Source of the DNA: Pelomyxa schiedti
Taxonomy: Eukaryota; Protista; Evosea
Direction of reading: 5' to 3'
Length of the DNA stretch: 64,000 nucleotides
Assembly (NCBI GenBank): GCA_020536535.1
Contig: JAHLWZ010000871.1
Coordinates: 1,089-65,088, forward strand
Below, one piece after another: positions 23,401 to 61,630 of this stretch. Below the pieces are notes generated by a model. It made no database searches. It had not been told where the DNA came from and was given only the letters and a program-made list of their open reading frames with translations. Both the position numbers and the translations under genes were made by a program. The stretch's first letter is position 1. Every line of letters starts with the position of its first letter.

Positions 23401-26400
23401 CACTACTTTATTAACTTGCTCTGGGACTACTTGGTAGTTCTTTTCTTTTAGAACATCTTCAACATGTTCTCGAAAAGTTTTTTGCAACTCTACAACTTGT
23501 GTGACACCAGGAAATATGTCATTCAAGATTCCCTATACGTTGGTAAGAAGTTGTGTACCTGTGTTTTACACAAACCTGAAAGATGGAAATGTCAGAGAAC
23601 ACAAACTTTGGGAGGTTCATGCCTCTTATGGCTTTTATCATCACTACATCTTCCTCTTGGGAAGGACACCTGCCAGTGGAAAACTGATGAGTCAAAATCT
23701 CTTTAGAAGAGGAGAAAGAAAAGGTAGCCACCCCCTCTTCAGATTTCCTGCCATCATTAGAGCAGATTTGAGTGCACGCAATCCCCAGTCATAATGTTTT
23801 TGTTTTGTCAATTGCTGTTTGGCTAACTCATAAAGTGCACAAATTTTTTTAGCAAGAGTCCTGGCACTAGAAAACCCGAAGCTGAATAACATAACCTCAG
23901 CAATAAGTTCCATATCAGGAACGGCCATAACAACAGGTCTAAACAATGCCTGTGCTTGTTATAACTTAGCAACCTAGTCATGTTCACACCTTTAGGTTAT
24001 CTGGCAACTCAGTCCGGCCTGAATATGTTGGATTCGAGGTGACAAAGATCTAATTGGTTGGTGGGAACTCATAGATGCCACAAAACATACTCCACATTTG
24101 CTATCTAGATTGAGCTCTTTGCCAAAAAATTGAAATTTTGTTTGAGAAGCTCTCAAGGCTTGTTGAATAGTGCTGACTTGAATTGATATCACAGAGAGTA
24201 CCTATTGGTGCATTACAAGTGAGCTGCTTCAGGAATATTACTACCTCCGGTTTTATGCGATTGAATTCGTCAAAGCAGGCCCACCCACCACACTGTACCA
24301 GACCAGAAAGTAGACGGGCAGTAGTGGAGTAATCAACCCCTTCACCACAGTTGTAAACCTTGCACAAAAGACCCAATGACTTAGCCAAATCCTTCACAGT
24401 TTCCTTTAATAAAGTGGTGAGGCCATGGTCAAATCAGGGTGTGCACACAGTCTTGCCAGTTCCAGCAGGCCCAGCAGGAGCACCTCCAAGTTTATGGGTG
24501 TGCGCTTGTGTCAAAGTCAAAATACACCTCTCTGTGAGTGGGGTAATAACCAATCTACCACTCAACCCAAGATACTCATATCCATAATGGAATACACCAG
24601 AACACTGTTGGATTACAACATCTTCGACAGAAGTATCCCTGTATGGAAATTAAACTGGTGGTGATGGAAGAATTAAACCAGTAAAATCGCAGCTGGCTTT
24701 CCCACTCGAACTGACTAAGTGAGAAGATGCTACCTCGAACCAAGGATTCCACGACATCCTCTTGGTGAACGCCAATGATAATCAATGAATTTATAATGCT
24801 TCTTGTTATGGGGGGAAGATCCTGGCGGACCAAACCAACAAGAAACTGGAGGTGATCATGCATTCTATTACTGAGCTTTTTGAATGCGTTCTTATCAGAG
24901 CTGAGCTAAATTTGATCTGTTAGTAATTTTCACAGCTTGAACAAAGAACTTGGTGAAAAGTATCTTCAGTATTCCACGTCCACCATATTTGGGCAGCAAC
25001 GAGGATGGACATAGCGGGGAAAGACCCGATCCAGGAAGAAAAAGGCATAGTAGCATGGTAGAATACTGTTTCTTTTGTTAAAGCACGCAGAGTCTACTAA
25101 TTGTGAAATAGGTTGAGAGTTCCATGTTAACATGTTACATATTTCATTTCTGATTCCACAGATTGCATCCACACTTCAACTGGACCCCCTAACGGGAATT
25201 GTCTACGAAATTTTACTTGTTCACACTCTGAAGATATCATGCCTGCTACAATTTTTGATTGCTGTGTACTGTTAACCCTAATATGTGAAATAAGTACAGA
25301 CAAAAAAAGGGTTAATATTTACACAAGAGTTTGTATATTCCCAAATAATTGAATCATATGTGTCTGTAGTGCACTTAGATCAGAGCTTCCCAGGATTGCC
25401 AGTAGTTCATCATCACTAATGAAATAAAATCTTGAAAAAGCTTGACGCTTTGTCTCAAGGTATTCAGACAGTGCACACTGGCAAGTTTGGAGGGAAACAT
25501 GCAAATTTTTCAGTAGCTCAGCACGCCCTGAGTCTTGGCATGCCTGAGGTCATAATGAGTGTTTTCTGAAAATGAAAAGCCTGTGTACCTGAAGAACGAG
25601 AGTGTTAGAACCAATTTCAGACATCATTGTTTTAAATGTCTTGTCGATGTAGCTGAATTGCTCTGACTCCACTGGAAGCCTTTCCCGAATATCCTCATTT
25701 GAAAGGAATATATTTTCCAGGTACAGCCATTTCTTTTGCACAATCATCCACTCTTGGGTAACCTTGGATTGCATTGGCATCAGCAAATTTTGGAGAATGA
25801 AATAACCTCTTCCACCAGTGCTAATTGCTTTTCCCATTTTTGGATTTTTTCTAAAAAGGAAGAAGCATAGCGAGAAACAGCCATTGCTTGTAATGTCATC
25901 TGGTTATCTTCAATCAGGGACTGAATGTCATCAATTCCCTTTAATAGCAGATTTGTCTTCTCTCCATTGGTGAGCTTTATAAGTTCAAACTGCATTGTCT
26001 TCCACGAAGTGGAAATTGACTGAAGAGTCTTTCCAAATGAGTCTTCATGATTGGCAGTCTCAACCACATCAGAGATTCTTTCTGTAAACTGTTCCAAGTC
26101 CAACGATAGAACCGTACCAAGTGTAAACTCATCATTGGTATGCAAGAAGAGGTAACCAGTGATCTTTTATGTACACATCAAGTTAATACGGGGACAAAAT
26201 GGGGATGACAGGCCTCTTTAATTTTGTCCCAATGCCTTGGTTGTAGGGAGTCACTTTTCAACCATTTCAAAAGTGAAACCGATTCCCTAAAAGTATTAAT
26301 TCGTTGTACCAGCAGTTTTGACGGGTATATGGACTGCAGGGGCTTGGGGAGTCTATTGGTTTTGTTGATGAACCCATCAATTCCACCAACAAGGACATCA

Positions 26401-29400
26401 ATATCTACTTTACTCCACGGAATTGACAACCAATTTGCACGACAATCCTAATGAGGAAATCAGCACACTGGTTTTTGTGATCAAACATACCTTAAAAGAA
26501 GTGTACAGTTGGAACACTGTATCCAGGCTCGATAGAGAATCTTGTAAGGCTATTAAGTCAGGGTAAATGGTGATTGGGAGGTTCAGAAGTTTTTCTGCTT
26601 GGATCAAGTTATCCCGAATTGCACAGTACCTAGTTTGCATTAGCAAGTGCATATCAATGGCAAGCAATTCACACTTTTTTGCTATCTGCTTAAATTTATT
26701 CAAGCACGTAACAGCAGAGTCGAGTGTAAGTTCTACATTTGTGGGCCCAGATTTTTGGTATTTGAGGGTCAAGTGTTGAAGTTTGACTTGGAACTGCTCA
26801 ATCTTTGGTGTATTTTACTTAAACCAAGGAGAAAAGTTGAAACTGCCTGCCTGCTTGTGGGTAATGTCAACAAACTGGCCTTTTACAGGAGTAATACCAG
26901 CTTCAATTTTCTTGAGGTCATGCAATATATTGGACCATCTTTTTTTTTGGTTTGTTTTCCTCCCTCCATGTTCACCACTGAGTGTTTACCTTATAAAAAC
27001 TTGCTTTACAAGAGAAGACTCTTCTTCAGGTACGGGTATGTGATATTGAGTGAGGATTTTGTACTGATGCAAAATTGTATTGTATCTTGACTCAATAGAA
27101 ATTGTTTGACCACGGATCTACTTGGAGTCAGATATATCAATATTTGTGGTAGTCAATGCACACATTTTCCAAGACAGAGAGGACCCCCTTGAGTTCTTCT
27201 AGAGATGTTGCGGGAGACCTTGGTATTTGTTGTTCCATGCTAGTCATGGTATCAGAGAAGGCATGTAGGTCATCTGTAGCTGCCTGATGTGAAGTATTTC
27301 CTTCAGCTGAAGTCAGAAACTTCAGTTAATATCAAAAGTCAAACCATATGCAAGTATCCAGGATGTAACTTCTGCTTTGATGCATGTGGACAGTGGTTCC
27401 ACGGCGATACTTACAAAACCAATTTCAATCACCAATGGAAGCTGACTGATCTCTTCAAGGAGTGTTCTATAGGTATCAAGCTGATTGTCCAACTCAGGTA
27501 AGGAACCATGTGTTGTAAAAAAGTTCTGGACAGTAGTTTTCTAAAAAAATAAATAAAGTGATAATATAGAGTAAATGATTTACTCTATCTGTTGTCCAAA
27601 GAGGCTGGTATTTCGACCAGGATGAGATCTCCTGACTAATATCTGTCAGTGTTTGTTGCACACTGGCCTTCAGTCCTAAGAGGGTTCCTGCAATCTTTTG
27701 GCTTTCGTGTCATTGAATATTGTCGAGAAATTTGATAAGTACTTGGGGAGAATTAGTTATTTCTGCAAAAAAAGTCACCGGAGGTGCACTGGAGATAGCT
27801 TGGGGTGAACAACCAGAATTCCATCTAACCTCGCCATTAGGAAAAGATCGAAAGATTCCTCCTCATACCTAACAAAGTGCTTGGGGCATCCAATCACATC
27901 ATTGATGGTAGCTGTGAGATATTGGGCCATCACCTCCATGGATGGATTTGTAATAATATCAGGTGGATTTAAGGAAAGGTCTGTGTGGAAAAGAGGAGGA
28001 AAAGCTTCTGTAGAGTGATGCTGCTTGCAAGTCTGAGAACGGAATAGGAAATTATGCAATATGTGAAGGTTTTCCAGAACGAGCTTTCAAAGTTCGATTA
28101 GGAATTTTTCTTCACAAAAAAGCCACACCTTAGTTAAACTGTTGTACAGTCTTGCTTCCCACAAGTCGTAATACTTTCCAATGTGAGGACAGTGCAATGT
28201 TGGTGTAGGGATTTGTGGTGACATAATATGCTCAATATTCACAAGAATATTAGTCATTGAGTTATATTTGTGCACCAATTCCTGAACTACTTGCTTGTAA
28301 AATTGTTGCTGCTGGTTGTAAAAATCCTAGATGTTGATTTTTAGGAGTTACATTGGTGATCAAAGGTGTACCTGTACTCTATAAGACACTGCAGTGGGAG
28401 TCTTCACCACCACTGCTGTGGCAATTTGCTCCACGATATCTTGAAGAGTTCCTGCCGCATTTCTCACTAACTTGAGAGTCTCTTCAAATTTAAACAGGTT
28501 CTTTGTCTAGTTACTGAATAGTGTAACGCCAAATAATACATACTGCAGAAAAGTTCCTGAGAAAAGTATTTACACCCAAAGAATTCCAATTAAGGGATTC
28601 AAAGCCAGGTTGGAGGAGCAAAGAAAGGTTGTTGAGGGATTGTGATAACACCAATTGTTCATCACTGGTTATTTGTGAAACCACTTGTCTATAATGACAC
28701 AGAGTATAATTTAGTTCTGATGACAACTTGTAGTAGCCATCCTCCTGTAGCTGCTGAGACAGTTTTTGAAATGAATGATGAGCAAATACATTAATGGCAA
28801 TATTTACAGCAGAAGTAGGTATCTCAAAGCCAAGTGTTTGAAATACTTTTGCGTCATGTATGAGTGACGCTATCTCAGTGTTGAAGTGTACATAAGGGTG
28901 TTTGTCATTCATCGCCAAAATTGGATGTCCATTGAAAGTAACCCTGTACAATTCATCCACACGGGAAACCCATTTTTTAAACAACTAAAACTAAATAAGG
29001 GGACCAGTTTTAGCAATAGGAAATAAGAGTAAAACATTTTGTTCATATGCTCTCATCTCTTTTCCCAGTGTGAGATAGATGTTCATTGTCTGCGCTCCAG
29101 TCTCAGAGCACAACAGGCCTAGAGAGTATTTACCATAAAAAGATTATCACCTCAGCCTCTTACTATTATTCTCTGCTGTTTGCATCTTAAGTACAGTTTT
29201 TTTCAAGGGCTCGAAAAGTGCTTGTGACCAAATTACAGAACCAGACGATGGTGTTTGATTTCTTCCAATTGGAGGGTTGTTCTTATGCTGGTAAAAAGTA
29301 TGCCGAACCTAGTGCACATTCAAAATGGTGAATATCCAGAAAATAATACTTTTTCCACTTCAGCTTTAAAGCACTCTAAAGCATTTGGATACTTGGTCAG

Positions 29401-31783
29401 TAACTGCTGGTGTATAGATGGCCTGAGAGATTAAGTAAGATCGAAGTGTTTTATAAGGAGTTGCACCTTGTGGAAATAGTTTTATATGTCTGCAGCAAGT
29501 CAAAGGCAACTTCAGCCCTATGAAGATTTCGGAAGCTACAATCAATTATATTTGCTATAGCCTCATCAATCTAGAACATGATAGAAGTTGAAAAGTCATC
29601 ATGGGGAATAAGTACTTGGCTACAGATAGCGAAGAAATGAGAAAGGTCATTCTGCCAGGTGTTGCAAAACTCCTTATCAAAGACATCATAAGTGACACTT
29701 CCCAACTTAGCAAGCAGGGTATTCAGATGTCTCTTGATCCTATCAATAGGTTGAGTTTCTCCCATAATTCCTACACTCATGTGAGACAGCAAAGCAGTGG
29801 CGTAATACCTTTCAAGGGATATAGGTTGCCATATTCCTCAGTGATTTTAACAATCTTACTGAGGTCACAACATCGTTCATATATATAGTCCATCTGCATG
29901 TGTAAGAGAAATTTTGATATTAAGTATGATCTACGTGTTCAAACATATCCATTGGAGCAACTAGCCAGGCAGTCAATGATGTTTGTGTTTCCTGAACAAT
30001 TTTAGGTTCAAAACATCCCAAGAGATGTCATACATGTCTCCATTTTTCAAGAATACTTTTTGCTTTTGAAGTTTTATTCCAAGCTTCTGTATCTTGAAAT
30101 AGGGCAGGGAGCATCAGACTGTTCTTCACATGTTCCTCTATATCCCAGCAAACCTTCCGTATCAGGGCAAGAATATTTTCTTCTTTGTGATAATAGCTTT
30201 GTGCTTTCAAAAAAATAGCTTTTTTGAGGAAACAACTACTACCTTGACATGGTCCAGGTAACCTTCAGTGTGGCAAGAACACCTTGAAGAACTTCTGGGG
30301 TCATAAATCCAAGCTCCAAAGAAAAATAGCGTTGGAATGGAGAAAGAAGGGTAACATTATCCTAGTAAAAAATTAGAATAAAGTAAAATATAAAGATAAC
30401 ATAGGTACATGAGCCAATTTAGACTGCAAGGAAAGATTGTCAAGCTGTGTGTAAAATGAAGAATACAATGGGGAGCCAGCTTCCTTCACTACCTTGATAA
30501 TGGTTTGGACCTAAAACTATTAGCTATTAATCACTGAACAGGGGTACTTACAGCTTCTGAATTCAATTGAGTCGAGGCACTCTTTAGGTCTCTGCATCTT
30601 CTTCGCCAAAAGTTGATTTCAAAGGTAGTTCCCTGAGATAGTATTTTAATAGATACATTTTCCCAATATATACCTGGCCTGCTGAGTGCGTTTCATCGCA
30701 TTCTAACAGTTGGTGCATGGTAGAAAGCCATTGTGTCATACAATTTTCAATTTTCGGAATCACCTTTTTTTGGTGTGTATTCAATTTTAGAGTCGAAGGT
30801 ACCTCAGTCTTATTGGCAGTAGGTTGTGTGTTACTGATAGAAACAGTAGGAAATGAAAAGTTACTTTTCACCCCAGAAGTAAGAGACAGTTCAGTGGGTG
30901 GATGGTGATTTCTTTGTTGGGAACCTATTATAGGATCTTGAGTTGTAACAGCAATGTTATGTTGATCTACTCAACATATTTGGGGACTTGAAAGTAGTGG
31001 TCCATATGTTCTTCCAACAATTGTCAGCAGTGATGGAAGGAGATATCTTGCCACTGAACCGTAACCAAAGTGTTCTGACATTGTAGAATTCATCCCTGAA
31101 TTGTCTGAGCCACCATCACATGGTTGTTTGTTGTAATTTTCATGGATTTTGCCTTCAAAATCCGCCATTTTTTTTTTTTAAATATTGTGGGGAAGTCTGA
31201 TATCATACACACTTTCACTGCCAGGCAAAAAGTTCTTCAGCTCAGAAACAATGCCACAATCAGTGAGTTTCACCAAATAGGCAGCCACACAAGCCAAAGA
31301 GCAGGCCCCAGTCCCTCCCATAAGTCCCTCATCTGGTTGGCAGCTGCTACTGTCCCATAATCCCCCCTGTGGCCCGTTCCAACTCACCAATTTCACAATT
31401 ATATCGTCGTGAGCCTCACCCTCAGCCCTGCGGGGGGCCAACTGCCTCCTCCCACAATCGTCTTTCCAGTACACCACCACAAAGTCTCCCCTCCTTGAGC
31501 ACGGCGAGGTCCCAACCTGGGTCCCGGCACAGCCTCGCCCCCTCGACGATGCCGTCGTCGTGTCCGGCGAACCCATAATCATGCCACGCAGGTACGCGGC
31601 CAACCTGGGGTCGTTCCTGACTACGTCCTCGCGGCGGTCCACTGCTGTGGTTTTGTTGTTGGTGCTGTTGCTGGCATTAGGCTCCGCCGTCTGGCCCCCA
31701 AAGAGGCACAACGTCAATTGGGCCGTGGCCCATCGGATGGCCGCTGTCTCCAGTGCCACCTCGTCGCGTTTGCTGGGCCTCAT
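14456..31783 (-). CDS. DNAH10: Axonemal dynein heavy chain, DNAH10 / inner-arm I1(f)-alpha-like, dozens of exons
   Basis: DHC_N1 and N2 tail; AAA1 GPAGTGKT and [10 protein letters not shown]; AAA2 GPTLSGKT and DGDVD; AAA3 GVSGTAKT; AAA4 GLPGSGKR; stalk/MTBD; AAA5; AAA6 LSPGSDP. The C-terminus [34 protein letters not shown] matches my recollection of the DNAH10 end. Sampled junctions were in frame; not every junction was checked. Confidence 0.88.
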
Positions 31784-37590: not shown

Positions 37591-37886
37591 CTACAGCCAT
37601 CACTAACAAGCTGAAAACAAGCAAATTCCCTCACTCGTGCATCAACCTTATTCTTCGAAAACAATCAAGGACCAAGTTGTTTGTGCACCTGACGAAGGAC
37701 CGCAGGCACTGACATGGGAGAATAAAATGAACACCAAGAACTTGGGCCTGTTCATCGAGTGGGTGACACAGAGTTATGTGTCGTCCCAATTGTTCTGGGA
37801 GTGACTACGCGCAAAACGCAAAATAGTGACCAAGACATGAAAAACAACAGTCAGCATTACAAAAACCATAATACTGAACGAGAATC

Positions 37887-39323
37887 ATGTCTGCAACCCC
37901 TATGGTAGCTGCAACGTACTGCGCACGTGACTTCGCATCGGCAGCGGCGCGCCTCCTCTGTGCAGTTGCAACAGTGACGTGGCCCCGATCTGGCTCTGGA
38001 AACTTCGCGATGTCGCCGGCGGGCGTCCTCCAGGTCCTCGCCGTCCTTCTCAACGCGGCCTCGCCCGGCTCCACGACCGAGCGCGAGCTCGCCTCCTTGC
38101 TCGGCAGCGTGGGCGCGTCGCGGCGCGACGTCACCAAGTTGGTCTCATCGCTGCTGGCGGGCGACGAGTCTCGGGCCCTGGTTTTCACGAGCGCAGTTGC
38201 AATGTGGTCATCCGGTGGAGTTTCTGGAGATCTGGCCGGGATTCTTGGGCGAGAGTTCCACGCGGAGGTGGTTGGGCATATGGCGAGCTCGGCGGCCGAA
38301 GTGAACGAGTGGGCGTCGAGGGCCACTTGTGGGAAGATATCCGCCGTGATTTCGCAGCTTCCTGCGTCGTGCGACGAGCCGGGAGCGGTTCTGGTGGCTG
38401 GCGCGGTGCATTTCAAGGGCAGCTTCACTGCTCCGTTCGATGCCGGGCTCACTCAAGAGGCTGACTTTTGCATTGTGGGAGGAGGAGGAGGAGGGGGAGA
38501 GTCTGAGTCTGCTGTGGAGGTGGAAATGATGGCGAAGCGGGCTGCTTTCTTCTACACGTGAGACATTGCCTACTACTGGCTTTTTCCTGTGTGGCTAACT
38601 TCTTGGTTGTTTTTTTTTTAGCAAGCAAGACCTGTATGAAGCTGTTCAATTGCAATATGGACACGATGGCCGCTTTGTGAGGTACTTGTCAGCCTGTTTT
38701 TCAATGTGCACTTATGTGTTTAAAAGCTACGTCATTCTACCTTCGAAGTCTTCTGATGTTCGTGCAATAACTGGAGCTGTTTTCACAAATTGGGAAGAGT
38801 TTCTTGGCCGTTTTGGGTGAGTTGCTTTCTTCTAGTCACATTCTGTATGAGTAACAAATAATCAGAGCATCACCCACACCTGGAACCTTGAAGATGCCAA
38901 AATTTACTGTAGAACAGTCCCTGCCTCTGCGTGATGTACTTTCACATTTCGGAGCACCCACACCCTTCACCCACAATGCCGAGTTTGGAGGTATTACACC
39001 CCTTTTTCTCATCTCATACCCCTAAACTCCACCCTAACGCTGAGTATGCAGAGTTGAACCATGGAAGGCCTGCTTGGGTCACTGAGATGCAACAGAAAAC
39101 ATTCCTCAAAGTGGACGAGCAAGGAGCCGAGGCAGCAGCCGTTACAGTTGCAGTGGTGACGTCAATCGCCCTTCTGCCTCATGACGGGGAGTTCTACATG
39201 GAAGTGAACAGGCCGTTCTTGTTTGTCATTGGATTCCGCCACCGCTCTGAAGTCACTGGTGACGTGGAGGCCGTTATTCCCATTTTCGTTTCTGCAATCA
39301 ACAACCCGGCAACAACACCCTGA
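37887..39323 (+). CDS. Serpin (intracellular, probably inhibitory), 5 exons
   Basis: GNFAMSPAGV, VNEWASRATCGKI, AVHFKGSF...FDAGLT, VEMM, LKMPKFTVE, KTFLKVDEQGAEAAAVT (hinge), VNRPFLFVI. Exons join in frame. Confidence 0.92.
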
Positions 39324-44982: not shown

Positions 44983-45530
44983 ACTTTCTGAGGGTTCCTA
45001 TTTTGTGAAAATTTGTCAAATTTTGTGGAAATTGTGCATAGTCACAAAGGAAGAATTTCCTCTTTGTGCTTACAACATCCTTTTATTGGTTGACGCGCTT
45101 GTTTGGTTGTTACAGATGGTGAAAGCCCAACGGGGGATGGTATTTCACTCAGAGAAAGGGGGAAGCTTCGAGTTTGTCCATGGCATCAGGAACACTTGGC
45201 TGGTCTGGTTCGCGAACACTTCATAATAAGGCAGGGTTGTTAAGGTAAAACACCTAGAACCGACTCTCGCTTGAAGCTGGCTCTCTAACTGTAAGACGAA
45301 CCCTTATGGGTGTCAAAAGCGAAGTCGGTAAAGCGAACAAAGATCGTTCTCTCTCATTTTCTATAACTTCTAATCCTTTAGGATAGTTCTAAACTGTGCG
45401 TGGAGATGTCACGGCGACTGCAGCTGATAGAACTAGTTCAAATATAGCCGATTTGATCCAGTTTGGGTGAGTCTGATTCAGGTCTGCTGGAGGTGGGTTC
45501 TGAAACATAACCTGTTGTTGTTCTTCACAG

Positions 45531-45650
45531 AGGAAGCAAATCGATATCGATGGGAGGGCCTGTTCTCTGGAAATTCTAGACACAGCCGGAACAGAGAACT
45601 TCACAGCAATGCGTGACCTGTACGTGAAGAACGGCCACGGCTTCGTACTA
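45531..45650 (+). pseudogene. Orphan exon of a Rap-subfamily small GTPase
   Basis: cag|[40 protein letters not shown]|gt; DTAGTE with Thr61 is characteristic of Rap. No canonical P-loop or NKxD exon was found nearby. Confidence 0.7.
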
Positions 45651-46010
45651 GTTTCGGCCACACTCTAAGGGCAGTTTTCCCAAGTCTTAAGCGACGAAAT
45701 AGTGGCCTATTTCTTCCATCGTTCAAATTTACGTCCTTACCTGCGATGAAGAGAAGTTAAGGGAGCAACGAGTAGAAGTGTTGGTTTGCCGGTGTCTGGA
45801 GAGGTATACCTCTCCTACCACAGTCAACTCAGAGCCGCTCTCCCATCAAAATCAATCAAACGATCTCCACCAAAACAACTTTTGATCTGTTAAGCGGCTG
45901 TGGTCTTCTCGGTGTAAACAAGCCGTGCACGAAATACCACAAAAACCGACACAACCAACAAAGGGAGCGAGCAGGTGCCGTTTGTTGGTGGTGAAATTTT
46001 GAGTCAGAAT

Positions 46011-49000
46011 ATGAAGGAATGCCCTCTTTTGCACGCCACAAGTGAAATCGTCACTGCTTGTGTCATAGGAGTTGATTTCTCTGGTGGGACCTTTCTTTTC
46101 ATTGTTTTCAAGTTTTTCCAGAAAAACCTACCATCAATAAAGGGAATCCAGTGGGAACTGAGGGAACTAAAAGTATAGCTGCATGCCTGAAAGAGAACAA
46201 GTCAATCCTATATCTTAAGCTCTCTGGTATTTGGGAATTGGGGTGAACAACAATTAACACGAACAAAAGAGAACTTCATCAACCCTGATGGAGCTCATTT
46301 TTTGGCACAATCTCTTGCTGTAAATAAAACTCTCAAATCACTGGACCTATCATGTATGGAAGGGAGTGGCTGGGGGAAAAAAAGTCAACATATTTCCCAC
46401 TAGGCAATCACCTACTGCCACAAGGCACAAGGGAAATCTCTGTTGCACTCGCGAGCAACACCAGTGTTAGCACAGTGTCACTTGCTAGTAAGTGGTGTAT
46501 CTATCTTTAGTGTCCCGTTAATAACACAAAGATAATGAAATTGGGAGCATGGGGGCAATGTGGATATCTGAGTGCATCAGAGGAAACTCCACAATAACTG
46601 ACCTGGATGTCTCTGGTATACTACTTATTCACACTGATGATTGCTTATGGTATGTTTTGAAAGGGAACCATTTTGGATCTCAGGGAGTCACTGATCTCTG
46701 TGAGGGTCTGAAAGTAAATTCATCTATAAGGAGGCTGAACTTAGCCAGTATATCCAAAACTTTCTCTGCAGCAATAACAGTCGTAAAGGAAATGAGATTG
46801 GAGTTGAAGGTGCTTCTCTAATTTCTGATTTACTTCAAAGAGCAGGACACATCCATGAAATTGATCTATCAGGTTCTCCCCTTTTTTTTTTTTTACTTTT
46901 TCCCTTTCTTTATCTATTAATTCCCACAAAGGAAACAACCTTGGTTCAGAAGGGATTTGCCACATATTCCAAGCCAGGAGTTTTTCTGCTGTCTCTTCCA
47001 TTGATATATCACGTATCGTAATTTAAAATCGTCCAACCCCTTGTGACAAAATACAGAGAATGATATTGGCACTGAAGGTGTAAGAGCTCTTTCATCTTAC
47101 TTGAAGGCTGGCTCCCTTGTAAACTCTCTCAATATGTCAGGTGTGGTAGTTTACTGATCAACTTCGACCAAGTGACAATATGCTAAGGGAATGAACTGAA
47201 TGTTGATAGTTTGGGATTGATAACAGAGTGTCTAAAAGAAGAGAGCTCGATAACTTCAATCAATCTAGCTAGTCAGTATTCCTTTTTGCCTGAAATCATA
47301 GTGTTTTAATAATCTCCCTAGAATGCAACATTTCAACTGGGTTTCCGCTCATAGCTGATGCTCTTAAAGTGAACACATCCCTCAGATCTTTGAATTTATC
47401 AGGTCTCTTTGTTCCATCCCTGTAACCTTTTGTACTGACGATTGTCTCAGCAAATAGAATTGGTGCTGAAGGAGCCCTTGTCCTTAGTGGTTGCCTCCAA
47501 TTTAACTCTACTTTGACTTCTCTTAACATTGCAGGTTTTTTTTCCGTTTTGCATTATTGAACCTAAATCTTCTCTTAACTCTAGAGTCACAGTTGGCTGC
47601 GAAAGGCACTTTATTCTTCTCACATTACCTTCGGAAAAATTCTTCATTGTTATATTTGGATCTAACAGGTATTTAAAAACAGTCTCTGCTTTGAATCAAC
47701 CCATTTTCCAACTCAAGATAACGGGATCGATGACGATGCTGCACCTTTTTTGGCAGACGCCTTGAAGGTGAACTCCACTTTGTCAAGCCTTGATCTTTCA
47801 GGTATGAATGAGTCCAGAATGAAATGACGACACTAACATTTGTAGGAAACATCCTTAAAATAGAAGGTGCAAGAACACTTTCTATTGCTCTTAAAGAAAA
47901 TCGAGGCGTGACCTATCTTTCCTTAAAAAGTGAGTAAAATAACCGATATTTGCCATTGCTAAGCTGAAACAACCAAGGGAATAAAATCGGGCCACTTGGT
48001 GCCCAGTGCATATCCGAGTGTTTGAAGGTCAATAACAGTTTGGAAACTCTTATTCTCGCAGGTTACCTGCCAAAAAAAAAATGAAGTTTGTTTACCTTTA
48101 CCCTAGGAAATAAAATAAACTCAGCTGGCACACTAAGTCTGTGTGAAGGATTGAGCCTGAACACATCCCTAACTTTTCTTGATTTAACTCGTATCATCAC
48201 CCAATAATTCAATAGCACCTAATAAGTCACAATATTCCAAAGGGAATGGGATTGGGGATGAAGGTCTTGTTGCCTTTAGCACTTACGTCAAATCCACCAA
48301 GTCCCTGGTTTCATTCAATTTATCTGGAAATGGCTTAAATTACAAAGCTATTCATGAAATTAGCAGTGCACTACAGTGTAATCAGTCAATAGTATCCACC
48401 ACCTTCTCAGGTAACCAGAAACCATTTGCCGTGATGAGAAAGCTTACTTACTCTAACAGAAACACATTTTCCAAGAGAGGCAATAATTTTTATGATTAAC
48501 ACTCTGCACATGAACAAGCTTCTTTCCAAGATAGATTTGTCATGTTGTTCCACCAATGGTTATTTGACTAACCCTGTTCTGACCAGGGAATGAATTTGGA
48601 AGTGAGGAAACTGGGACCATTTTCTCTGCCCTTTCTCAATCCCCAGGGATCCCAATTGCTTTAACTACTTTCACCAACAAGTTTGACACACTGGGGAATA
48701 TTGTACATTCCCTTGAGGAGTCCAAGTTCGTTACACTGGCACCTGGAGTATGTCACCTTTTCATTACCATTGCATGTCAATATCTGCGTGTATCTTCGAA
48801 GAACAATTCTACAGCAGCAGCTCATTTCCTCTGTGAAGGTATCTTAATGGCTGTTGAGGCGCGACACCTCGACTTGGCCTTCCATACCTTTCGACATTGC
48901 TTTATTGGACAAATTGAAAACGGTGAACCTATCTCATCATCGGTGGCGGCAATGTTAGAACCAATCATATTAGAGGCATCTCAGTTTCCAGAGAACCAAC

Positions 49001-52000
49001 CAGACGTCATTCTATCTATTCTTTTCAACACTTTAGATTTGAGTGTGAAAAGGATAAAAGGGACATTCTTTCAACAACTCATTGTCACTCTATCCAAGGC
49101 GAGCTTGTTTATTGCAGTGCAAGCCTTGTTGAGGTGTTTACTGCGCATAAACCACCATGACATTCCTGAACTACTGTGCCTCGTCGCCATGAAAAATATA
49201 TTCACAGGACGGAATTTAGACCTTTCAAGATTACAAGTTGGATCCTAATACTAGTAAACATTTAAAAGAAAAAAAAAAACAAAAAAACAAACGCCGGAAA
49301 CAATACATATGAAAACCCTTCAGTGTTTCCCTTGTAACATTTCTCTAGCTTTCCAGGATACCAGAGGAACTGTGCCAACTAGAGTGTTCTTGTCTTGATC
49401 TTCGGTTCAACTTTCTTGAGGAACTGCCACAGGCACTCAGCAACATCAATGATGTTCTTCTGGAGGGCAACCCACTGACCAAAATACTGGATACAATACA
49501 ACACCTTCCCTGGAGTGAATTTCGCCTCTATGTCAAGTACAATGAACTCCCCATTCACTGGAAATATAGGAAAGTCCTCGTTGTTGGAGAACCTGAGGCA
49601 GGAAAAACGACTCTCTTGGAATGTTTGGAATCCAAAAAATCCACTGTGGATGTCAGCAAGTCTAGAATGGCCACAGATGGTGTGGCAATGCACAGGCCGT
49701 TTTCTTTACGCAAAAAGTCACAGCTGAAGTGGACTGCCTGGGATTTGGGTGGTCAAGATGTTTTGCATTCCTCTCATCAGTTTTTCCTGTGTAAGACATA
49801 CTTTTTCCCTCCTTTATCCTGACTGGTCACTTTTTATGCAGGCAGCAATTCCATTTTTATGATTGTTTTTGACATTGCCAAGGCTGGTCGTGATGATGCC
49901 ACTTTCAGTGTTTCTTATCAAACCATCAAATACTGGATATCCACTATTATGGTGTTGAAGCCATCGCAAGAACCACCCACCATCATCCTTATTGGCACGC
50001 ACTATGACCTTTGCTTGCATGTAGAAGCAGTAGTGCAGGCTCTTTTATCGCAATTCAACAGGCAAACATTCCACAGCATCTTTGTGGTGAGTTTAAAAAC
50101 TGGGAAGGGACTCTTTTACAAGAACAGAGAGTGGCACCTTAGTCGCAAAAAGACTGTATCGGACTTGATTGCAGAGTTAGAGGTTGTAGGCACAAGCAAC
50201 TCCTTTGGGAGTGTACCTCTAAGCTGGGCAAAACTGGCTGACTCACTGGAGGAAGCTAGAGTGAGAACTAAGATCATGCAGCAACGTGAATACCTGGAGA
50301 TGTCATCAAGCTCCGGAGTATCTCCTGAACACTTACCACTATGCACTCGCTTCCTTTGTGACTCTGGAGTTATTCTATTCTTTGGTGAAGTGAACACACT
50401 GAAAGAAAAGGCAATTCACTTTGCCTCATTGCCTTCCACTACACCAACAGAGACAAGCAGAGTAGACTTGCACGAACTGTTTGTACTGGACCCCTCTTGG
50501 CTATCTACTGTATTACAGACCTTGATCACGATTTCCAATAGGGACAAATTTGTAAGAGAAGGCATGCTGAATGCGAGTGATATACCCCACGTACTTGCAG
50601 GTTTTGCCAGGGAAATGCATGCTGCCATCTTAGAGTTACTTCAGCGCTTTGAGATTGCCCATGTTCTGGAGGACAATCGTATTCTTGTTCCCTGTTTACT
50701 TCCTTTAGCACCACAACCAATGGCTTTCGCATTGCAACCCGGAAAACCAGCATTAGAACATGGTAGAAGATACCAGTTCGCCTTCCTACCTGTAGGGTTT
50801 TTCTCTCGTCTCATGGCTCGCATGCTAAGTATTCCTTCTGTAAATATAGTGTCAATTTCCAAATTCCGTCTGGTGATCTCACAGCAAACGAAAGATGGGA
50901 TAATTCAAGAAGCCTTTGCAACCTATGAAGAAAAAGCCTCCCGCTTGGACTTTCGCGTCAAGATCTTTGAGGGGGTTGATCACTCTCACCCTCTTTTAGC
51001 CAACAATTTGTTGCTTCTCATTTTGCTTGACATAGTAGCAGCTCTCCTTAAAACTTTTTACCACAGGCAGATGGGAGACCAGCAAGTTACTCAGTTTGTT
51101 CCATGTGTTCATTGTCTCATGACAAGTCCTCAAACACCAGAGAATGAAGTATACTACTTTCCTCTTGACGACTGCATACTATCGATGAAATCCGGTACCC
51201 ATGTTATGTACTGTCGGCAGCTTGCATTGCCAAGTAAATGTATTCGTGTGTTGCATCTTGCCCCAGACATCGCCATGGTGGGTCTCACATCAATTCCTGC
51301 CAATGAAATTTCTTTTGGTCATACAAAAAGTCACAGTGATTCCCCTCACACAGAGTCTTCACCCAGTATCTCTGAACATGATAATGTTGGAGTAGGAGTT
51401 TCTGGCAGTGTCCGGATGGGAATCCTGAACAATATTCCTGTTGCAGTGAAGGAGCCACATAGTTATAACTCGAGTAGTTTGGGTGAATTTCTGTACGAAG
51501 CTCACATTATGACAACAATACCCCCACACCCAAATATTGTGCGGTTCTTTGGAGTCTGCAGTGTTCCTCCATGTATTCTTCTCATTATGGAGTTCATATT
51601 CCCTGCAACCCTTTCTCCCTCAATGTGGGGCCATTTTGATGGGAACCTCAAATCATCCGATCTTGATCACTTCTTACAAGCAGTGTGGGGTAGTCAGAAA
51701 CGCAATACAGATACTGATGTTGTATCTCTCCTTCTGCCCTGTGAACTGCGGCAACGAATTCTTTATGATGTGGCTGCAGGAATGAATCACCTCCATTCTC
51801 TTGTGCCACCGCTTCTCCACCGCGATTTGCATGCCGGAAATATTATGATATGTTCTCTGGACTGGAAAGCGCCCTCTCCTGTTGCTAAGGTAAACTATGA
51901 ATCCTTTGTTGCCTTCTCTAAAGTGTTGTATTCAGGTGACCGATTTTGGTCTATCAGAACGATTGTTTGTTGCCAAAACAGCCGGGATGCAGGAACGGCT

Positions 52001-55000
52001 CGAGGTTTTTCCACCTGAACTTCATGCTGGAAAGCCTTACGGCCTTCCTGCAGACGTATGGAGTTTTGGAACAGCTTGTTTTTTGCTCTTCAGTCCTCCT
52101 CTGGCAACTCCTTACGACTTTCTGCTAGCTAATCCTAAATTTGCAACAATCCCCAGAGGGACTGAACTTGCATCTTTGAAACGCTCTGAAGTTCGGCAAG
52201 GGCTTATTTCAGGGGAGGTTTTACCAAGGCCACCTGAGCAGTGCCCAAATTGGGCCTCTCAATTAATGTCCATATGTTGGAGTCATGAGCCGGAGCAAAG
52301 GCCCACCTTCTCTTGGTTGACTTCCAACGATAGCAGCCCTCTTCTTGCTGGGTTAAAAGAGGCCTGTCCCTTCCTGGGTTCTACACACAACGGACCCTAT
52401 TTTGCGGAGTACTCTAATTCTATGCCAGAAACAATACCATCTTCACCAAAACCACTTTACTTCGTAAGTGGCGAAAATAACTTAAATCGAGCCTCAGCAT
52501 ACCGCTGCACGCAACAGGCAAATCTCCGAGCTGTTGGAGGGGACTCATTAGTTATTGTGAATTGCCGGAAGATAATTTCCTGTGCTTCTCAGTGGTGGTG
52601 TGGTTGCAATAATGGAAATATCGTAGTTCTTCAACCTGAATCTCTTCCAGAAGTAGCATCAAGCTCCACTGCCGATACAGAATTTAGAATCATCAGAAGG
52701 CGTTGGCGGGCTCACATTGGACAGCAATCAGAAGTTACAGCTTTGTTATATCTACCACAATCCGAGTGTGTACTCAGTGGCTCTTCCGGTGGGGAAGTTA
52801 AATTCTGGAATTCGATCACTTTTGAGCATCAAGGCAGCATTTTGGCCTCCCATGAGCAAGCAAGCATTTTGGTGTTGGCTATTGCACCCCAGACACAACA
52901 GATATGGGTTGGGGACTCACGTGGTGTGGCAAGTGTGTGGAATCTCTCCGAAACTTCCCTTGGGATGTCTATGTCAATGGTTTGGTCCACAAGGATTAGC
53001 CACAATTTTCACCACCACAGCTCCCCTCTATCACCCCATTCATCGTCTAGTATCACCCCAGCATCTTCTTCAGCCGTTTTCAGTAAAACCCTACCATTTC
53101 ACAGATCCCGCTACAGTCCCATAGTGGACATATCCCCTCTTCACGACCGTGTTGTAATCGCTACTGCTGAAGTTATTACTGTGTATACAATGGACAAATT
53201 TTCACCAATGGCGCATTTGGAGGGAACCGATCTGGCACATCAATCATTAACTTGTTTAACATGTGTAAGTTCAAATGGGCCAGCTGCATCACAGCAAAGT
53301 ATTTGGGCAGGAACTTCACGTGGAGTCATCATTGCATGGGATGGCAACTTCAATATGAAAAATTCTGTCCAAGTTCACGACCGAACTGTAAATGGTATTA
53401 TAACTGACCCGACTTTCAATTTGGTGTGGAGTTGTTCTTTTGACGGGAAGGCAGTTGCTTTTGACTACACGACCTTTGCACCTATTCACGAGGTCGTGGT
53501 ATCAAAAGAAGAGGTACATGCAATCGCTGTCACACAATACTGCTTTCCTGAGCAGCGGATTTCTAGTAAATCCTGGCTTGCAACCATTTCCCATGATGAC
53601 CTTGTTAAATTCTGGCAACGCACTGATAACCAATCCCGCTTTCCAAGTACCCCTGGTATAAACAATCCTCTTTACAAAACCATTCACCATTTTTTGCAGA
53701 CAAGCAACTGGCTGCTTCTGTCTTCCGTCGAGCTGTTCGGTCGAGAGTATTCCAACATAACAGAAGAAAGTTTCAAGCTGACCCAAACGAATTGCTCTTG
53801 TTATTGAGGCTTCAAGGGAACCCTTTAGTTTACGGGCAAGACTTCGAGTTTGTTGGAAGAATAGAAAACGTAGTTTACCTCTTCCTCTTACATCACTAAA
53901 TTTCATATCAGACCTATGACAGTCCTCTCTTTTTAGCGTCATTCACATTCCCCTCTGATACCAATTCGCCAGAAGAGAGACAGGTAATGTTTTCAATAGC
54001 TGTAGTTCCTGAAGATCATCTATTCTCTGCACATGATTTGGACGTCATTGAGAAAAAACTTTTCAGAGGTTACTTCACCTTCTTTTCCCGGCCCTTCTCA
54101 TTTCCCATATAGTAGTGGAAAGAGCAAAAAATGAAAATGGTTCAGTACCACAACAATACCAATAAAAAATTTACGTGTAACAGATGTTCTTCACAACATC
54201 GACCGTCATCCCTCTATCTTCCCTCTGTTTACCTCTTTCTTTGTTAAACTTCCTGCTTCAGTAAGTGCAACCCACAGTTCCTTTACCATTTTCTTCCTTT
54301 GAAACCACTCATAACAGATATTCCATGACAGTGAATCTCTGTACCGCAAACAAGCAGCCCAAGGATTGCACTTCCATTTGTGTGTATACCCAAGCTATGA
54401 CTGCACACTCGCGACTGTGATATCTGCATGCACCAAGACAAAAGCTGGCCTTCCTTTTTCCTCTGGATGTGCAGTTGTCCCTGCCGTCTCAGTGAATCTT
54501 GTCAACCGGATAGTGAGCAGTTTGGTGTCAGCACTAAATCACATGCAGACTCACTTTCTAGTGCACGCTGACATACAACCTAGCAACGTTCTACTTTCTG
54601 AAAACGGTTCCTTTCTTTTCTTGGCCAAATCACACTAACAAGTACCTTCAAAGGAACGCGGGTTCTACTCACTGGATTTGGGCATTCCCGATTCATGAGA
54701 GGGAACGGTACAACCGTTGGCCCATGGTGCGGCTCTGCTTTTTGGTGCCCACAAAATTCCATCATTCCGCCAGAGGTAGGAAACTGTTTATGCCTCGTGA
54801 GTAAACTTATGACCCCAATTAAGGTAAAGGAGCAGCTCCGAACCCTTACAGATCCTCATAGAAGTTTGGTGAACTTCAGTAAAGCAGACGAATTCTCCGT
54901 AGGAGTTACAGTTCTGCACCTCATGACAGCCATGGTAATGAACCTCGGTTTATTTCTAATTCTAAATATCTACTATTCCAAAAAAAAAAGGTTCTTCCAC

Positions 55001-55194
55001 CCCAAGAGTCTGAAGAAGTAATGCAGAGCGCTACAGGAAGCTACAATTTTGATACAATAGGAAATAAGCTACTACCTGCCCAAATATTCTCCCGCGACCT
55101 CACTGAAATTGTTCTTCTAATGGCAAGCATAAACCCCATGGAACGGCCGCATATAAGCAGCAGTCTGATTGACATAGTAGAGGGTCTCACGTGA
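46011..55194 (+). CDS. Roco protein: ~20 RI-type LRRs - helical linker - LRR - Roc - COR - protein kinase - WD40 - C-terminal pseudokinase
   Basis: LRR exons 46143-48543; Roc KVLVVGEPEAGKTT, ATDGV, WDLGGQ, IGTHYD; COR LDPSWL, FLPVGFFSRL; kinase GVGVSG/VAVK/HRDLHAGN/DFG/PPE; WD40 WRAH, VLSGSSGGEVKFW, VWSCSFDG; second kinase-like domain VHADIQPSNVLL...KADEFSVG...RP; TGA at 55192-55194. Confidence 0.88.
46143..48543 (+). repeat. Array of 28-aa RI-like LRRs, one repeat per 84-nt exon
   Basis: 17 single-repeat exons (mostly 84 nt, two of 81 nt; e.g. 46143-46226, 46270-46353) plus one 168-nt double exon. Every flanking intron is phase 1 at the same repeat position. Confidence 0.9.
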
Positions 55195-60420: not shown

Positions 60421-61630
60421 TGACCATGCTGTTCAGGCTGAGAGTCAGCAGTGTAAGACGCAACCATACACTGGTGTTGTCTTCTTGCTTGTTTCTGAAG
60501 TCTGGGACTATATTCGGTTCCTTGCTCCTCCTCCATGCTTTGCTCTGCTGTCCTTTTGGAGTAGCTGAGCTTGATCTGATGAGTGTTGCTTCTGGTGCCA
60601 ACCACCTTGGTTATAATGTGTCCTGGGCATGACTCAGCCGAAGTTGTTTTCAAGATTATCTGGGAGCTGCCTGGATTGGACAGGAAACAGTGGTGGTCAG
60701 TGATTCCAGAGAACTTCAGAAAAGAAACGCTTTTTGGGGTTTCAGGGACTTCCAAGTGAGCAGGGTACCTTGAGATATGAAGAAGAGGAAGAGTAAGTAA
60801 AAATCGGGCTTATTTTTCTTTGAGGGGGTGAATTGAACAAACAACATACTTCAAGATAAAGGCATTTTTCATCAAGTGATCCTTCTCAATGGCAGACTGC
60901 ATTTCCGGAATGAACTGCTCCATTATGTCAATTCTAGTTTTCTTTGTCTGCTCATTGTAAAATCGGGACAGCAGCCCAAAGTGCCCATCAACTTCAGACT
61001 TTCCATGCTTTGCTGCCCACAAATGCCAGGAAAGGCAGCAGTTCAACTTCTGAGGGAGATGGCAAAGGAATAGGTCTGCCACCTCATAGTTGTCAAAGTG
61101 CGGGCCTTTGTCTGTGAAGAGCTTGATGTCAGAGATCCCCTGAAACTCGTCAAGGTGGTCTTGTATCACAGATGTCACACGTATCTGTTTGTCTTTCACT
61201 GTGTTTTAAACATGATACCTCACATTTACAAAGTGTTGTGACTGAGAGGTGTTGCTGCCCTCTTGTGGTGGCAGTGTTGTTGTTGGACATACCTTTCTGT
61301 TTCTCAATAAACTCCCTCACAAGGGATATCTTGGAGTCATCCAAGATTCTTGCTGTTTCGGTTTGTTTAGAACCATCAGGGTGATGCATCACATGATGGT
61401 GATCATCCCGATGGGCAACCGTTCTATTCCCTGCCTCTTGAGAGTGGGAATTCAGGAATTCAATAAGCAGTGGTCTTGTCTGAGAAACCAAAGGTGTTTC
61501 TCTTTTTGGACATCCAGGGTTTGCAACCTCTGTGTTGTTTTCTCTTCTCTGAAAAGAATGGCTGCTGATGCAGAGATTGTGTCATTTCAAAGTCCTCCGT
61601 GGGATGTGACCAACAATGCGCACTAGTGTG
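60177..61630 (-). mobile_element. Degenerate, internally deleted Sola-like DDD transposase
   Basis: TDTCDIC; IKLFTDKGPHFDN; WHLWAAKHGKSEVDGHFG; GITDHHCF. A frame break lies directly after the Cys motif, and no TIRs were found. Confidence 0.65.

What the first reader, a model, noticed from the sequence alone, without database searches (positions are those of the whole stretch)
46011..55194. Roco receptor whose ~20 RI-type LRRs are each a symmetric cassette exon: candidate modular or variable recognition system
Seen: 17 single-repeat exons (84 or 81 nt) and one double exon, all bounded by phase-1 introns at the same repeat position, so any subset could be skipped, duplicated or swapped without a frameshift. 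The repeats are highly divergent from one another, and the array precedes an intact Roc-COR-kinase-WD40 module. Established: one-LRR-per-exon Roco genes with exon shuffling were proposed as pathogen receptors in the brown alga Ectocarpus, and 84-nt RI-LRR exons occur in animal NLRs such as NOD2 and NLRC3. Inference: this may be an amoebozoan NLR-like sensor with a GTPase/kinase output and a diversifiable ligand-binding surface, relevant to a phagotroph that handles bacteria or endosymbionts.
Basis: partly seen in the sequence, partly recalled or inferred. Interest (0 to 1): 0.78.

Follow-up and report, generated by a model that had tools for sequence, protein, structure and literature searches.

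The report
Old one-repeat-per-exon amoeba Roco kinase
An intact amoeba signalling gene joins a GTPase and kinase to about 20 leucine-rich repeats, nearly all on their own small exon, but the repeats show no sign of recent copying or swapping, so the layout is likely a relic of old duplications and not a working receptor-diversifying system.

Summary
Its 3' half equals a protein named Pelomyxa schiedti LRR kinase. The diversification reading is not supported: silent sites between exons are at chance level (141 of 490 against 0.30 expected), the 41-59-nt introns are unrelated and hold no spare cassettes, no second exon copy appears in two DNA runs, the concave face is no more variable than the convex, and the one close paralogue pair tested keeps repeat order (7 of 8). 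Exon skipping stays untested: RNA covers 1 of 19 LRR introns. The gene is the deepest branch of a Pelomyxa Roco expansion (17 other members found). The design is known from NOD/NLRC genes, brown algae and Tetrahymena, and the scan noted similar arrays in other genomes before. Interest 0.27.

The parts
46011..46083 (+). Exon 1 (73 nt): first ATG and a partial capping repeat; true 5' end uncertain
   Evidence: alternative upstream acceptor at 45963
46143..48190 (+). Exons 2-17: sixteen single RI/NLRC3-type repeat exons (14 x 84 nt, 2 x 81 nt) with phase-1 introns of 41-59 nt
   Evidence: no RNA cover
48243..48410 (+). Exon 18: 168-nt double repeat exon
   Evidence: X1 contig 48252-48402 covers it; Pfam LRR_6 E 5.7e-4; RI-type LRR chains in PDB
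48411..48459 (+). Intron 18, the only LRR intron seen spliced in RNA
   Evidence: one X1 contig, depth 3
48460..48543 (+). Exon 19: last single repeat exon (84 nt)
48544..48586 (+). Intron 19 (43 nt, weak GTTGTT donor); one RNA contig reads into it up to 48579; retention would stop the protein at aa 571
48587..49236 (+). Exon 20: one more partial repeat and a predicted all-helical linker (about 10 helices, pLDDT 61, generic helical-solenoid matches only)
49237..49348 (+). Intron 20 (112 nt, phase 0, A-rich) joining the LRR half to the Roco core; inferred from homology
   Evidence: 18 of 32 hits align across the join; no RNA cover
49349..49790 (+). Exon 21: short shorter-type LRRs and Roc N-half (GEPEAGKTT, ATDG, WDLGGQ)
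49842..51889 (+). Exon 22: Roc C-half, COR-A, COR-B, kinase N-part (GVGVSGSV, VAVKE, HRDLHAGN)
51936..53655 (+). Exon 23: kinase C-part (DFG) and WD40 propeller
53700..55194 (+). Exons 24-31: second kinase-like domain with HAD and GFG in place of HRD and DFG; predicted pseudokinase

Best explanation
This is an intact LRRK-type Roco kinase gene whose NLRC3-like repeat domain likely arose by old tandem duplication of one exon-plus-intron unit and likely now works as a fixed binding surface, with the family diversifying by slow gene duplication instead of cassette shuffling. Shown: the exon layout, the open frame, the domain order, transcription of the 3' half and of exons 18-19, saturation between repeats, and the Pelomyxa expansion. 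Inferred from Roco biology (PMC4104024, passages): a partner bound on the LRR horseshoe would shift the Roc GTP/GDP cycle and COR-mediated dimer state, which would gate the first kinase; WD40 would scaffold; the second kinase domain, lacking the DFG aspartate, would be a non-catalytic regulator. The cell process is not shown; by analogy with Dictyostelium Rocos and human LRRK2 it is most likely cytoskeleton or phagosome control.
For: Silent sites: 141 of 490 four-fold third positions match against 0.297 expected from composition; exon nt identity mean 0.44, maximum 0.63 over 190 pairs; LRR intron pairs score 6.01 against 5.86 shuffled and 6.33 for non-LRR introns. Introns of 41-59 nt cannot hold an 81-84-nt cassette, and a six-frame profile scan of the window found 13 repeats, all + strand inside the array. 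At 80% likeness no other contig of DNA runs X3 or X4 lies on any LRR exon, and the array lies in one contig without variants in each. Among 77 repeats from 12 Pelomyxa proteins the best cross-gene identity is 0.57 (best within-gene 0.61), and nearest neighbours fall in the same gene 21 of 77 times against 7.9 by permutation (0 of 5000). Sister paralogues P0036/P0081 (44% in Roc-COR) match repeat for repeat in 7 of 8. Concave positions differ no more than convex ones (0.82 against 0.85), like vertebrate NLRC3 (0.83/0.83 in mouse) and unlike two young NACHT-LRR arrays (0.70/0.48, 0.61/0.29). Best paralogue is 32% identical in Roc-COR. Modular exons without shuffling are described for Ectocarpus LRR-kinases (PMC3341825 section 15).
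Against: 18 of 19 possible repeat-boundary introns inside the array are kept although the rest of the gene has 11 introns in 6,017 nt, which selection for modular splicing could explain. Repeat number differs widely between paralogues (0-10 detected against 17 here; their gene models may be incomplete) and order is not conserved in deep pairs (2 of 45 pairs at p<0.05; 0 of 9 with this gene), which fits saturation or old reshuffling equally. At saturation the concave/convex test has little power, and paralogue P0026 does show a concave excess (0.90/0.76). One RNA contig reads into intron 19. X3 and X4 are one sample and may be the window's source; contigs drop rare variants.
Confidence: 0.66

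Rival explanations
1. The order of exons is fixed in DNA, but the cell uses the symmetric exons for alternative splicing, making shorter LRR surfaces or an LRR-only product that tunes signalling, as human NLRP3 does by skipping exon 5.
For: Every single skip keeps the frame; donors are heterogeneous and often weak; one X1 contig has intron 18 removed and runs into intron 19, whose retention gives a 570-aa LRR-only product; precedent in PMC6642158 (abstract, section 6, passages) and PMC11378527 (passages).
Against: Exon skipping across 41-59-nt introns is uncommon in organisms with short introns (recalled, not tested here); 8 of 190 forward joins make stops; non-LRR introns have similarly varied donors; the retention rests on one 151-nt contig and may be pre-mRNA.
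Confidence: 0.16
2. The gene is one of a family of fixed microbial sensors: the Pelomyxa Roco expansion gives a germline repertoire of different LRR surfaces for prey or endosymbiont signals, each gene invariant.
For: 17 other Pelomyxa-named Rocos among 30 proteins looked up, 16 of 17 Pelomyxa rows in one clade (SH-aLRT 99), 11 of 17 with two or more RI-type repeats; the organism carries endosymbionts (PMC8887013, passages); Roco expansions in phagotrophs and LRRK2 in phagosome control are discussed in PMC4104024 and PMC7003747 (passages).
Against: Members are 25-57% identical in Roc-COR to their best match and lie on contigs of different lengths, with no recent duplicate of this gene; RI-type repeats also serve axonemal and actin proteins, which are the best PDB matches; studied Dictyostelium Rocos act in chemotaxis, cytokinesis and development (PMC4104024). 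This reading overlaps the best explanation in gene history and differs only in ligand.
Confidence: 0.12
3. The array is an active DNA-level shuffling system like the brown-algal ROCO or young Tetrahymena LRR exons, rearranged between loci, isolates or nuclei.
For: The layout allows it; repeat number varies across the family.
Against: All hallmarks tested are missing: no spare or inverted cassettes, no near-identical exons or introns, no second copies or variant contigs, no cross-gene repeat above 57%, collinear sister pair.
Confidence: 0.04
4. The LRR array and the Roc-COR-kinase part are two separate genes, and the 112-nt A-rich stretch at 49237-49348 is intergenic.
For: Intron 20 is twice the usual length, has an in-frame stop and no RNA cover; the public model P0001 starts at aa 1212.
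Against: The join completes an LRR motif and 18 of 32 hits align across it; 8 of 16 Pelomyxa paralogues scanned carry LRR_6 and COR in one chain; the public start lies inside COR.
Confidence: 0.02

Closest known systems
Brown-algal LRR-ROCO genes with type I LRR exons (Zambounis et al. 2012, PMC3341825, section 15 and passages; Teng et al. 2024, PMC11378527, passages)
   Same: Roc-COR protein with one LRR per symmetric exon; expanded family.
   Different: There: 72-nt, phase-2, 24-aa repeats, LRR-Roc-COR only, spare and inverted intronic exons, recombined recent duplicates, positive selection, splice variants. Here: 84-nt, phase-1, 28-aa RI-type repeats, kinase, WD40 and second kinase domain, 41-59-nt introns, none of the dynamic signs found. 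It resembles the modular but unshuffled Ectocarpus LRR-kinase loci more.
Animal NOD/NLRC genes, especially NLRC3 (Hoss et al. 2019, PMC6642158, section 6)
   Same: One 28-aa RI-type LRR per exon with the border at a fixed place in the beta-sheet; array 32-33% identical to mouse and ray NLRC3.
   Different: No NACHT or CARD; output is Roc-COR-kinase; repeats are more divergent from each other (0.29 against 0.43-0.49). Whether the intron sits at the very same codon as in NLRC3 was not tested.
LRRK1/LRRK2 and Dictyostelium Roco kinases (PMC4104024 and PMC7003747, passages)
   Same: LRR-Roc-COR-kinase-WD40 order with intact G-box and kinase motifs.
   Different: Long RI-type array plus helical linker, HRDLH catalytic loop shared with several paralogues, and an extra C-terminal degenerate kinase (also in P0005).
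[quoted passage not shown] 2019, PMC6564038, passages)
   Same: Tandem arrays of equal-length exons with one intron phase from clonal duplication; its older group has lost repeat-level nucleotide masking.
   Different: 90 nt, phase 2, thousands of genes with young expansions; here one old array in a family of at least 18.

Membership tests
Roco kinases (LRRK-like) | Roc GTPase followed by COR | tested here: met
   Pfam Roc E 1.7e-8, COR-A 4.5e-20, COR-B 1.1e-8; G-box motifs
Roco kinases (LRRK-like) | Kinase domain after COR with catalytic motifs | tested here: met
   PK_Tyr_Ser-Thr; GVGVSG, VAVK, HRD, DFG
Roco kinases (LRRK-like) | N-terminal LRRs in the same chain | tested here: met
   open frame and homology across intron 20; no transcript spans the join
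Roco kinases (LRRK-like) | GTPase, dimerisation and kinase activity | not testable with these tools
   needs biochemistry
Brown-algal shuffling LRR-ROCO | One LRR per symmetric exon | tested here: met
Brown-algal shuffling LRR-ROCO | 72-nt, phase-2, type I repeat | tested here: not met
   84/81 nt, phase 1, RI-type
Brown-algal shuffling LRR-ROCO | Spare or inverted LRR exons in introns | tested here: not met
   introns 41-59 nt; no repeat outside the array or on the - strand
Brown-algal shuffling LRR-ROCO | Recent duplicates with recombined LRR domains | tested here: not met
   no close copy of this gene or its exons; sister pair collinear 7 of 8; close duplicates of other members would be hidden by 50% clustering
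Brown-algal shuffling LRR-ROCO | Positive selection on concave-face residues | tested here: inconclusive
   no concave excess but silent sites are saturated, so dN/dS cannot be estimated
Brown-algal shuffling LRR-ROCO | Splice variants of the LRR domain | tested here: inconclusive
   RNA covers 1 of 19 LRR introns
NLR (NOD/NLRC) | NACHT or NB-ARC ATPase | tested here: not met
   the only P-loop domain is Roc; no NACHT hit in the non-repeat exons scanned
NLR (NOD/NLRC) | 28-aa RI-type repeats, one per exon | tested here: met
   PMC6642158 section 6
PINK1-like kinase (second kinase domain) | Closer to PINK1 than to other kinases | tested here: inconclusive
   PINK1 chains give the longest alignments (E 3e-4) but TSSK6, NEK7 and MKK7 score as well or better; the likeness was first recalled, not found by a call

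The most novel reading that the evidence does not exclude
An endosymbiont-bearing anaerobic amoeba has its own expanded family of Roco kinases with NLRC3-type cassette exons, and uses exon skipping or retention of the last LRR intron to make variable sensor surfaces and LRR-only decoys that set how it treats prey and symbionts: an NLR-like splicing repertoire wired to a GTPase and double-kinase output in Amoebozoa.
Probability: 0.1. Interest if true: 0.7.

Novelty: new member of a known kind. Interest (0 to 1): 0.27.

Why it matters
As it stands it extends the one-RI-repeat-per-84-nt-exon design, known from animal NOD/NLRC genes, to an amoebozoan Roco kinase, corrects a public gene model that lacks the first 1,211 residues, and points to a Pelomyxa Roco expansion with a two-kinase variant that searches did not find described. 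It also serves as a negative control: exon symmetry alone does not show a diversifying receptor. If splicing variation were shown, it would make recognition of prey and symbionts in a free-living amoeba testable at a defined locus.

Tried and rejected
No whole genome is held, so exon-against-genome BLAST and the exon structure of paralogues could not be read; laying two DNA runs at 80% likeness stood in and only excludes close copies. Metagenome scan with a Roc alignment: 80 loci kept of 359 confirmed, none with an RI-type repeat at 12 bits or more, so no relative's exon layout was obtained. Searches for a protein covering the N-terminal half found none (the last lists the best 120 of 436). 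Inserts at the repeat boundary in paralogue models (P0027 20 aa, P0026 12 aa; P0005) look like retained phase-1 introns, a weak hint that paralogues share the layout; not counted as evidence. First repeat extraction was off by one position and was redone. A permutation script timed out; the rerun gives best matches only for the sister pair, whose repeat borders I set by hand. The tree is the quick search without bootstrap, with 6 of 39 intended rows dropped for want of a detected P-loop, among them P0012. The linker model (pLDDT 61, no alignment) matched only generic helical repeats, best Z 10.4 at rmsd 4.2 to a designed protein, below the level that means anything for helical folds. No RNA cover over exons 1-17 is not evidence about expression. 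Paper searches gave nothing useful on 84-nt exons in protists. No signal-peptide or membrane predictor was run. Supplements of the cited papers were not opened; the exon tables of PMC3341825 and PMC6642158 could bear on phase comparison.

Full report
Observation. I rebuilt the gene from the sequence. Thirty-one exons with 30 GT..AG introns give one open frame of 2,559 aa from 46011 to 55194. Exons 2-17 and 19 each carry one repeat (15 of 84 nt, 2 of 81 nt), exon 18 carries two (168 nt), and introns 1-19 are all phase 1, 41-59 nt, at the same place in the repeat. The chance of one shared register is about 1e-41, while the 11 later introns have mixed phases. Every single-exon skip keeps the frame; 8 of 190 forward joins create a stop.

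Independent support. RNA contigs (X1, X2; one sample) show 8 splice joints in the gene, one in the array (intron 18). A public protein, P0001, named leucine-rich repeat kinase of Pelomyxa schiedti, is identical to aa 1212-2559 of the model, which agrees with my 3' exon borders and shows that the public model lacks the LRR and Roc parts. The 112-nt intron 20 has no RNA cover, but 18 of 32 hits align across the join. The species is intron-rich, 7.43 introns per gene (PMC8887013, passages).

Domains. Pfam finds Roc, COR-A, COR-B, a tyrosine-kinase-like kinase and a beta-propeller, with G-box and kinase motifs in place. The repeats are RI-type: 32-33% identical to mouse and ray NLRC3, and the double exon matches axonemal LRR proteins, CARMIL and NLRs in the PDB. 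Between array and Roc lies a predicted helical linker of low confidence. After WD40 comes a second kinase-like domain with HAD and GFG in place of HRD and DFG, so predicted inactive; paralogue P0005 has it too (27.5% over 240 aa, E 3e-10); its family is unresolved.

Is the array dynamic? The Ectocarpus system is defined by spare and inverted intronic exons, recombined recent duplicates and positive selection (PMC3341825 section 15; PMC11378527 passages). Here: exon pairs average 44% nt identity (maximum 63%, 190 pairs); four-fold sites match in 141 of 490 cases against 0.297 expected; LRR introns are no more alike than shuffled ones. No repeat lies outside the array or on the other strand of the window (the profile recovered 13 of the array's repeats at its threshold). 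At 80% likeness no other contig from DNA runs X3 or X4 lies on an LRR exon and each run holds the array in one contig without variants; these runs are one sample, may be the window's source, and contigs drop rare forms. Concave-face positions, assigned from the LRR consensus, differ no more than convex ones (0.82/0.85), as in NLRC3, whereas two young NACHT-LRR arrays show a clear concave excess; the test is weak at saturation and paralogue P0026 shows an excess.

Family. Of 152 proteins then in hand I looked up 30; 18 are named P. schiedti, 17 besides P0001. In a quick Roc-COR tree of 33 rows, 16 of 17 Pelomyxa rows form one clade (SH-aLRT 99) with this gene as deepest branch; its best paralogue is 32% identical. 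Eleven of the 17 carry two or more RI-type repeats. RI-LRR Roco kinases also occur in Planoprotostelium, Vermistella, Dracoamoeba and Clastostelium, so the protein architecture is not unique. Among 77 repeats the best cross-gene identity is 0.57, and nearest neighbours are in the same gene 21 of 77 times against 7.9 expected: repeats multiplied within genes and were not recently traded. The sister pair P0036/P0081 keeps repeat order in 7 of 8. Deeper pairs show no order signal (2 of 45 at p<0.05), which cannot separate saturation from old reshuffling. Close duplicates of other members would be hidden by the 50% clustering of the library.

Mechanism. Best reading (0.66): an LRRK-type switch whose LRR horseshoe binds fixed partners, whose Roc-COR cycle and dimer state gate the first kinase (Roco model in PMC4104024, passages), with WD40 and a pseudokinase as scaffold and regulator; the cassette layout is the footprint of old exon-plus-intron duplication. 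The gene structure and age signals are shown; the switch, ligand and cell role are inferred. Rivals: alternative splicing as in NLRP3 (PMC6642158) (0.16), left open because RNA covers 1 of 19 LRR introns, with one contig reading into intron 19 as a faint hint; a fixed germline repertoire of microbial sensors (0.12), in line with Roco expansions in phagotrophs and LRRK2's phagosome role; active DNA shuffling (0.04); two genes (0.02).

Comparison and novelty. It is a member of the Roco kinases by domain order, not an NLR, and not a member of the brown-algal shuffling type, although it shares the layout. Equal-length single-phase LRR exon arrays are also known from Tetrahymena (PMC6564038, passages). 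A search for Roco with Mastigamoeba and expansion and one on Dictyostelium Rocos showed no description of this Pelomyxa family in their listings; the library lacks most subscription papers. Earlier scan notes list many such arrays in other genomes, including an old static 84-nt phase-1 array in another protist; these are unchecked and not counted as support. Verdict: real, intact, well-known design in a new host, with no evidence of present diversification. New member of a known kind; interest 0.27.

Noticed in passing
window 53700-55194 (+): The protein ends in a second, degenerate kinase domain (HAD, GFG), also present in paralogue P0005; PINK1 chains give the longest but not the best PDB alignments.
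   Followed up: partly
window 45531-45650 (+): An isolated exon-like Ras/Rap fragment (Pfam Ras E 1e-9) about 360 nt upstream of the ATG, with no rest of the gene seen nearby; other contigs match only this stretch. Could be a captured gene piece or an unrecognised 5' exon.
   Followed up: partly
window 45290-45506: Multi-copy repeat: raised depth and many variant contigs with loose ends in X3 and X4; possibly a mobile-element end.
   Followed up: no
window 48544-48586 (+): One 151-nt RNA contig has intron 18 removed but reads into intron 19; retention would end the protein at aa 571 as LRR only.
   Followed up: partly
window 48344: A>G difference in one low-depth X1 contig within exon 18, not seen in X3 or X4; may be an error or a strain difference.
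   Followed up: no
proteins P0006, P0013, P0040 (N-termini): These Pelomyxa paralogues have no canonical RI repeats detected and start with a different shared-looking region that by eye recalls a degenerate small-GTPase fold; not tested.
   Followed up: no
proteins P0026 aa 243-254, P0027 aa 75-94: Inserts at the repeat boundary that look like retained phase-1 introns, hinting that paralogues share the exon layout.
   Followed up: partly
window 15400-31000 (-): Intron-rich gene that by eye reads as a dynein heavy chain (name recalled, not searched).
   Followed up: no
window 37878-39323 (+): ORFs that by eye read as a serpin (name recalled, not searched).
   Followed up: no
window 60810-61205 (-): ORF that by eye resembles a DNA-transposon transposase fragment (recalled, not searched).
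   Followed up: no
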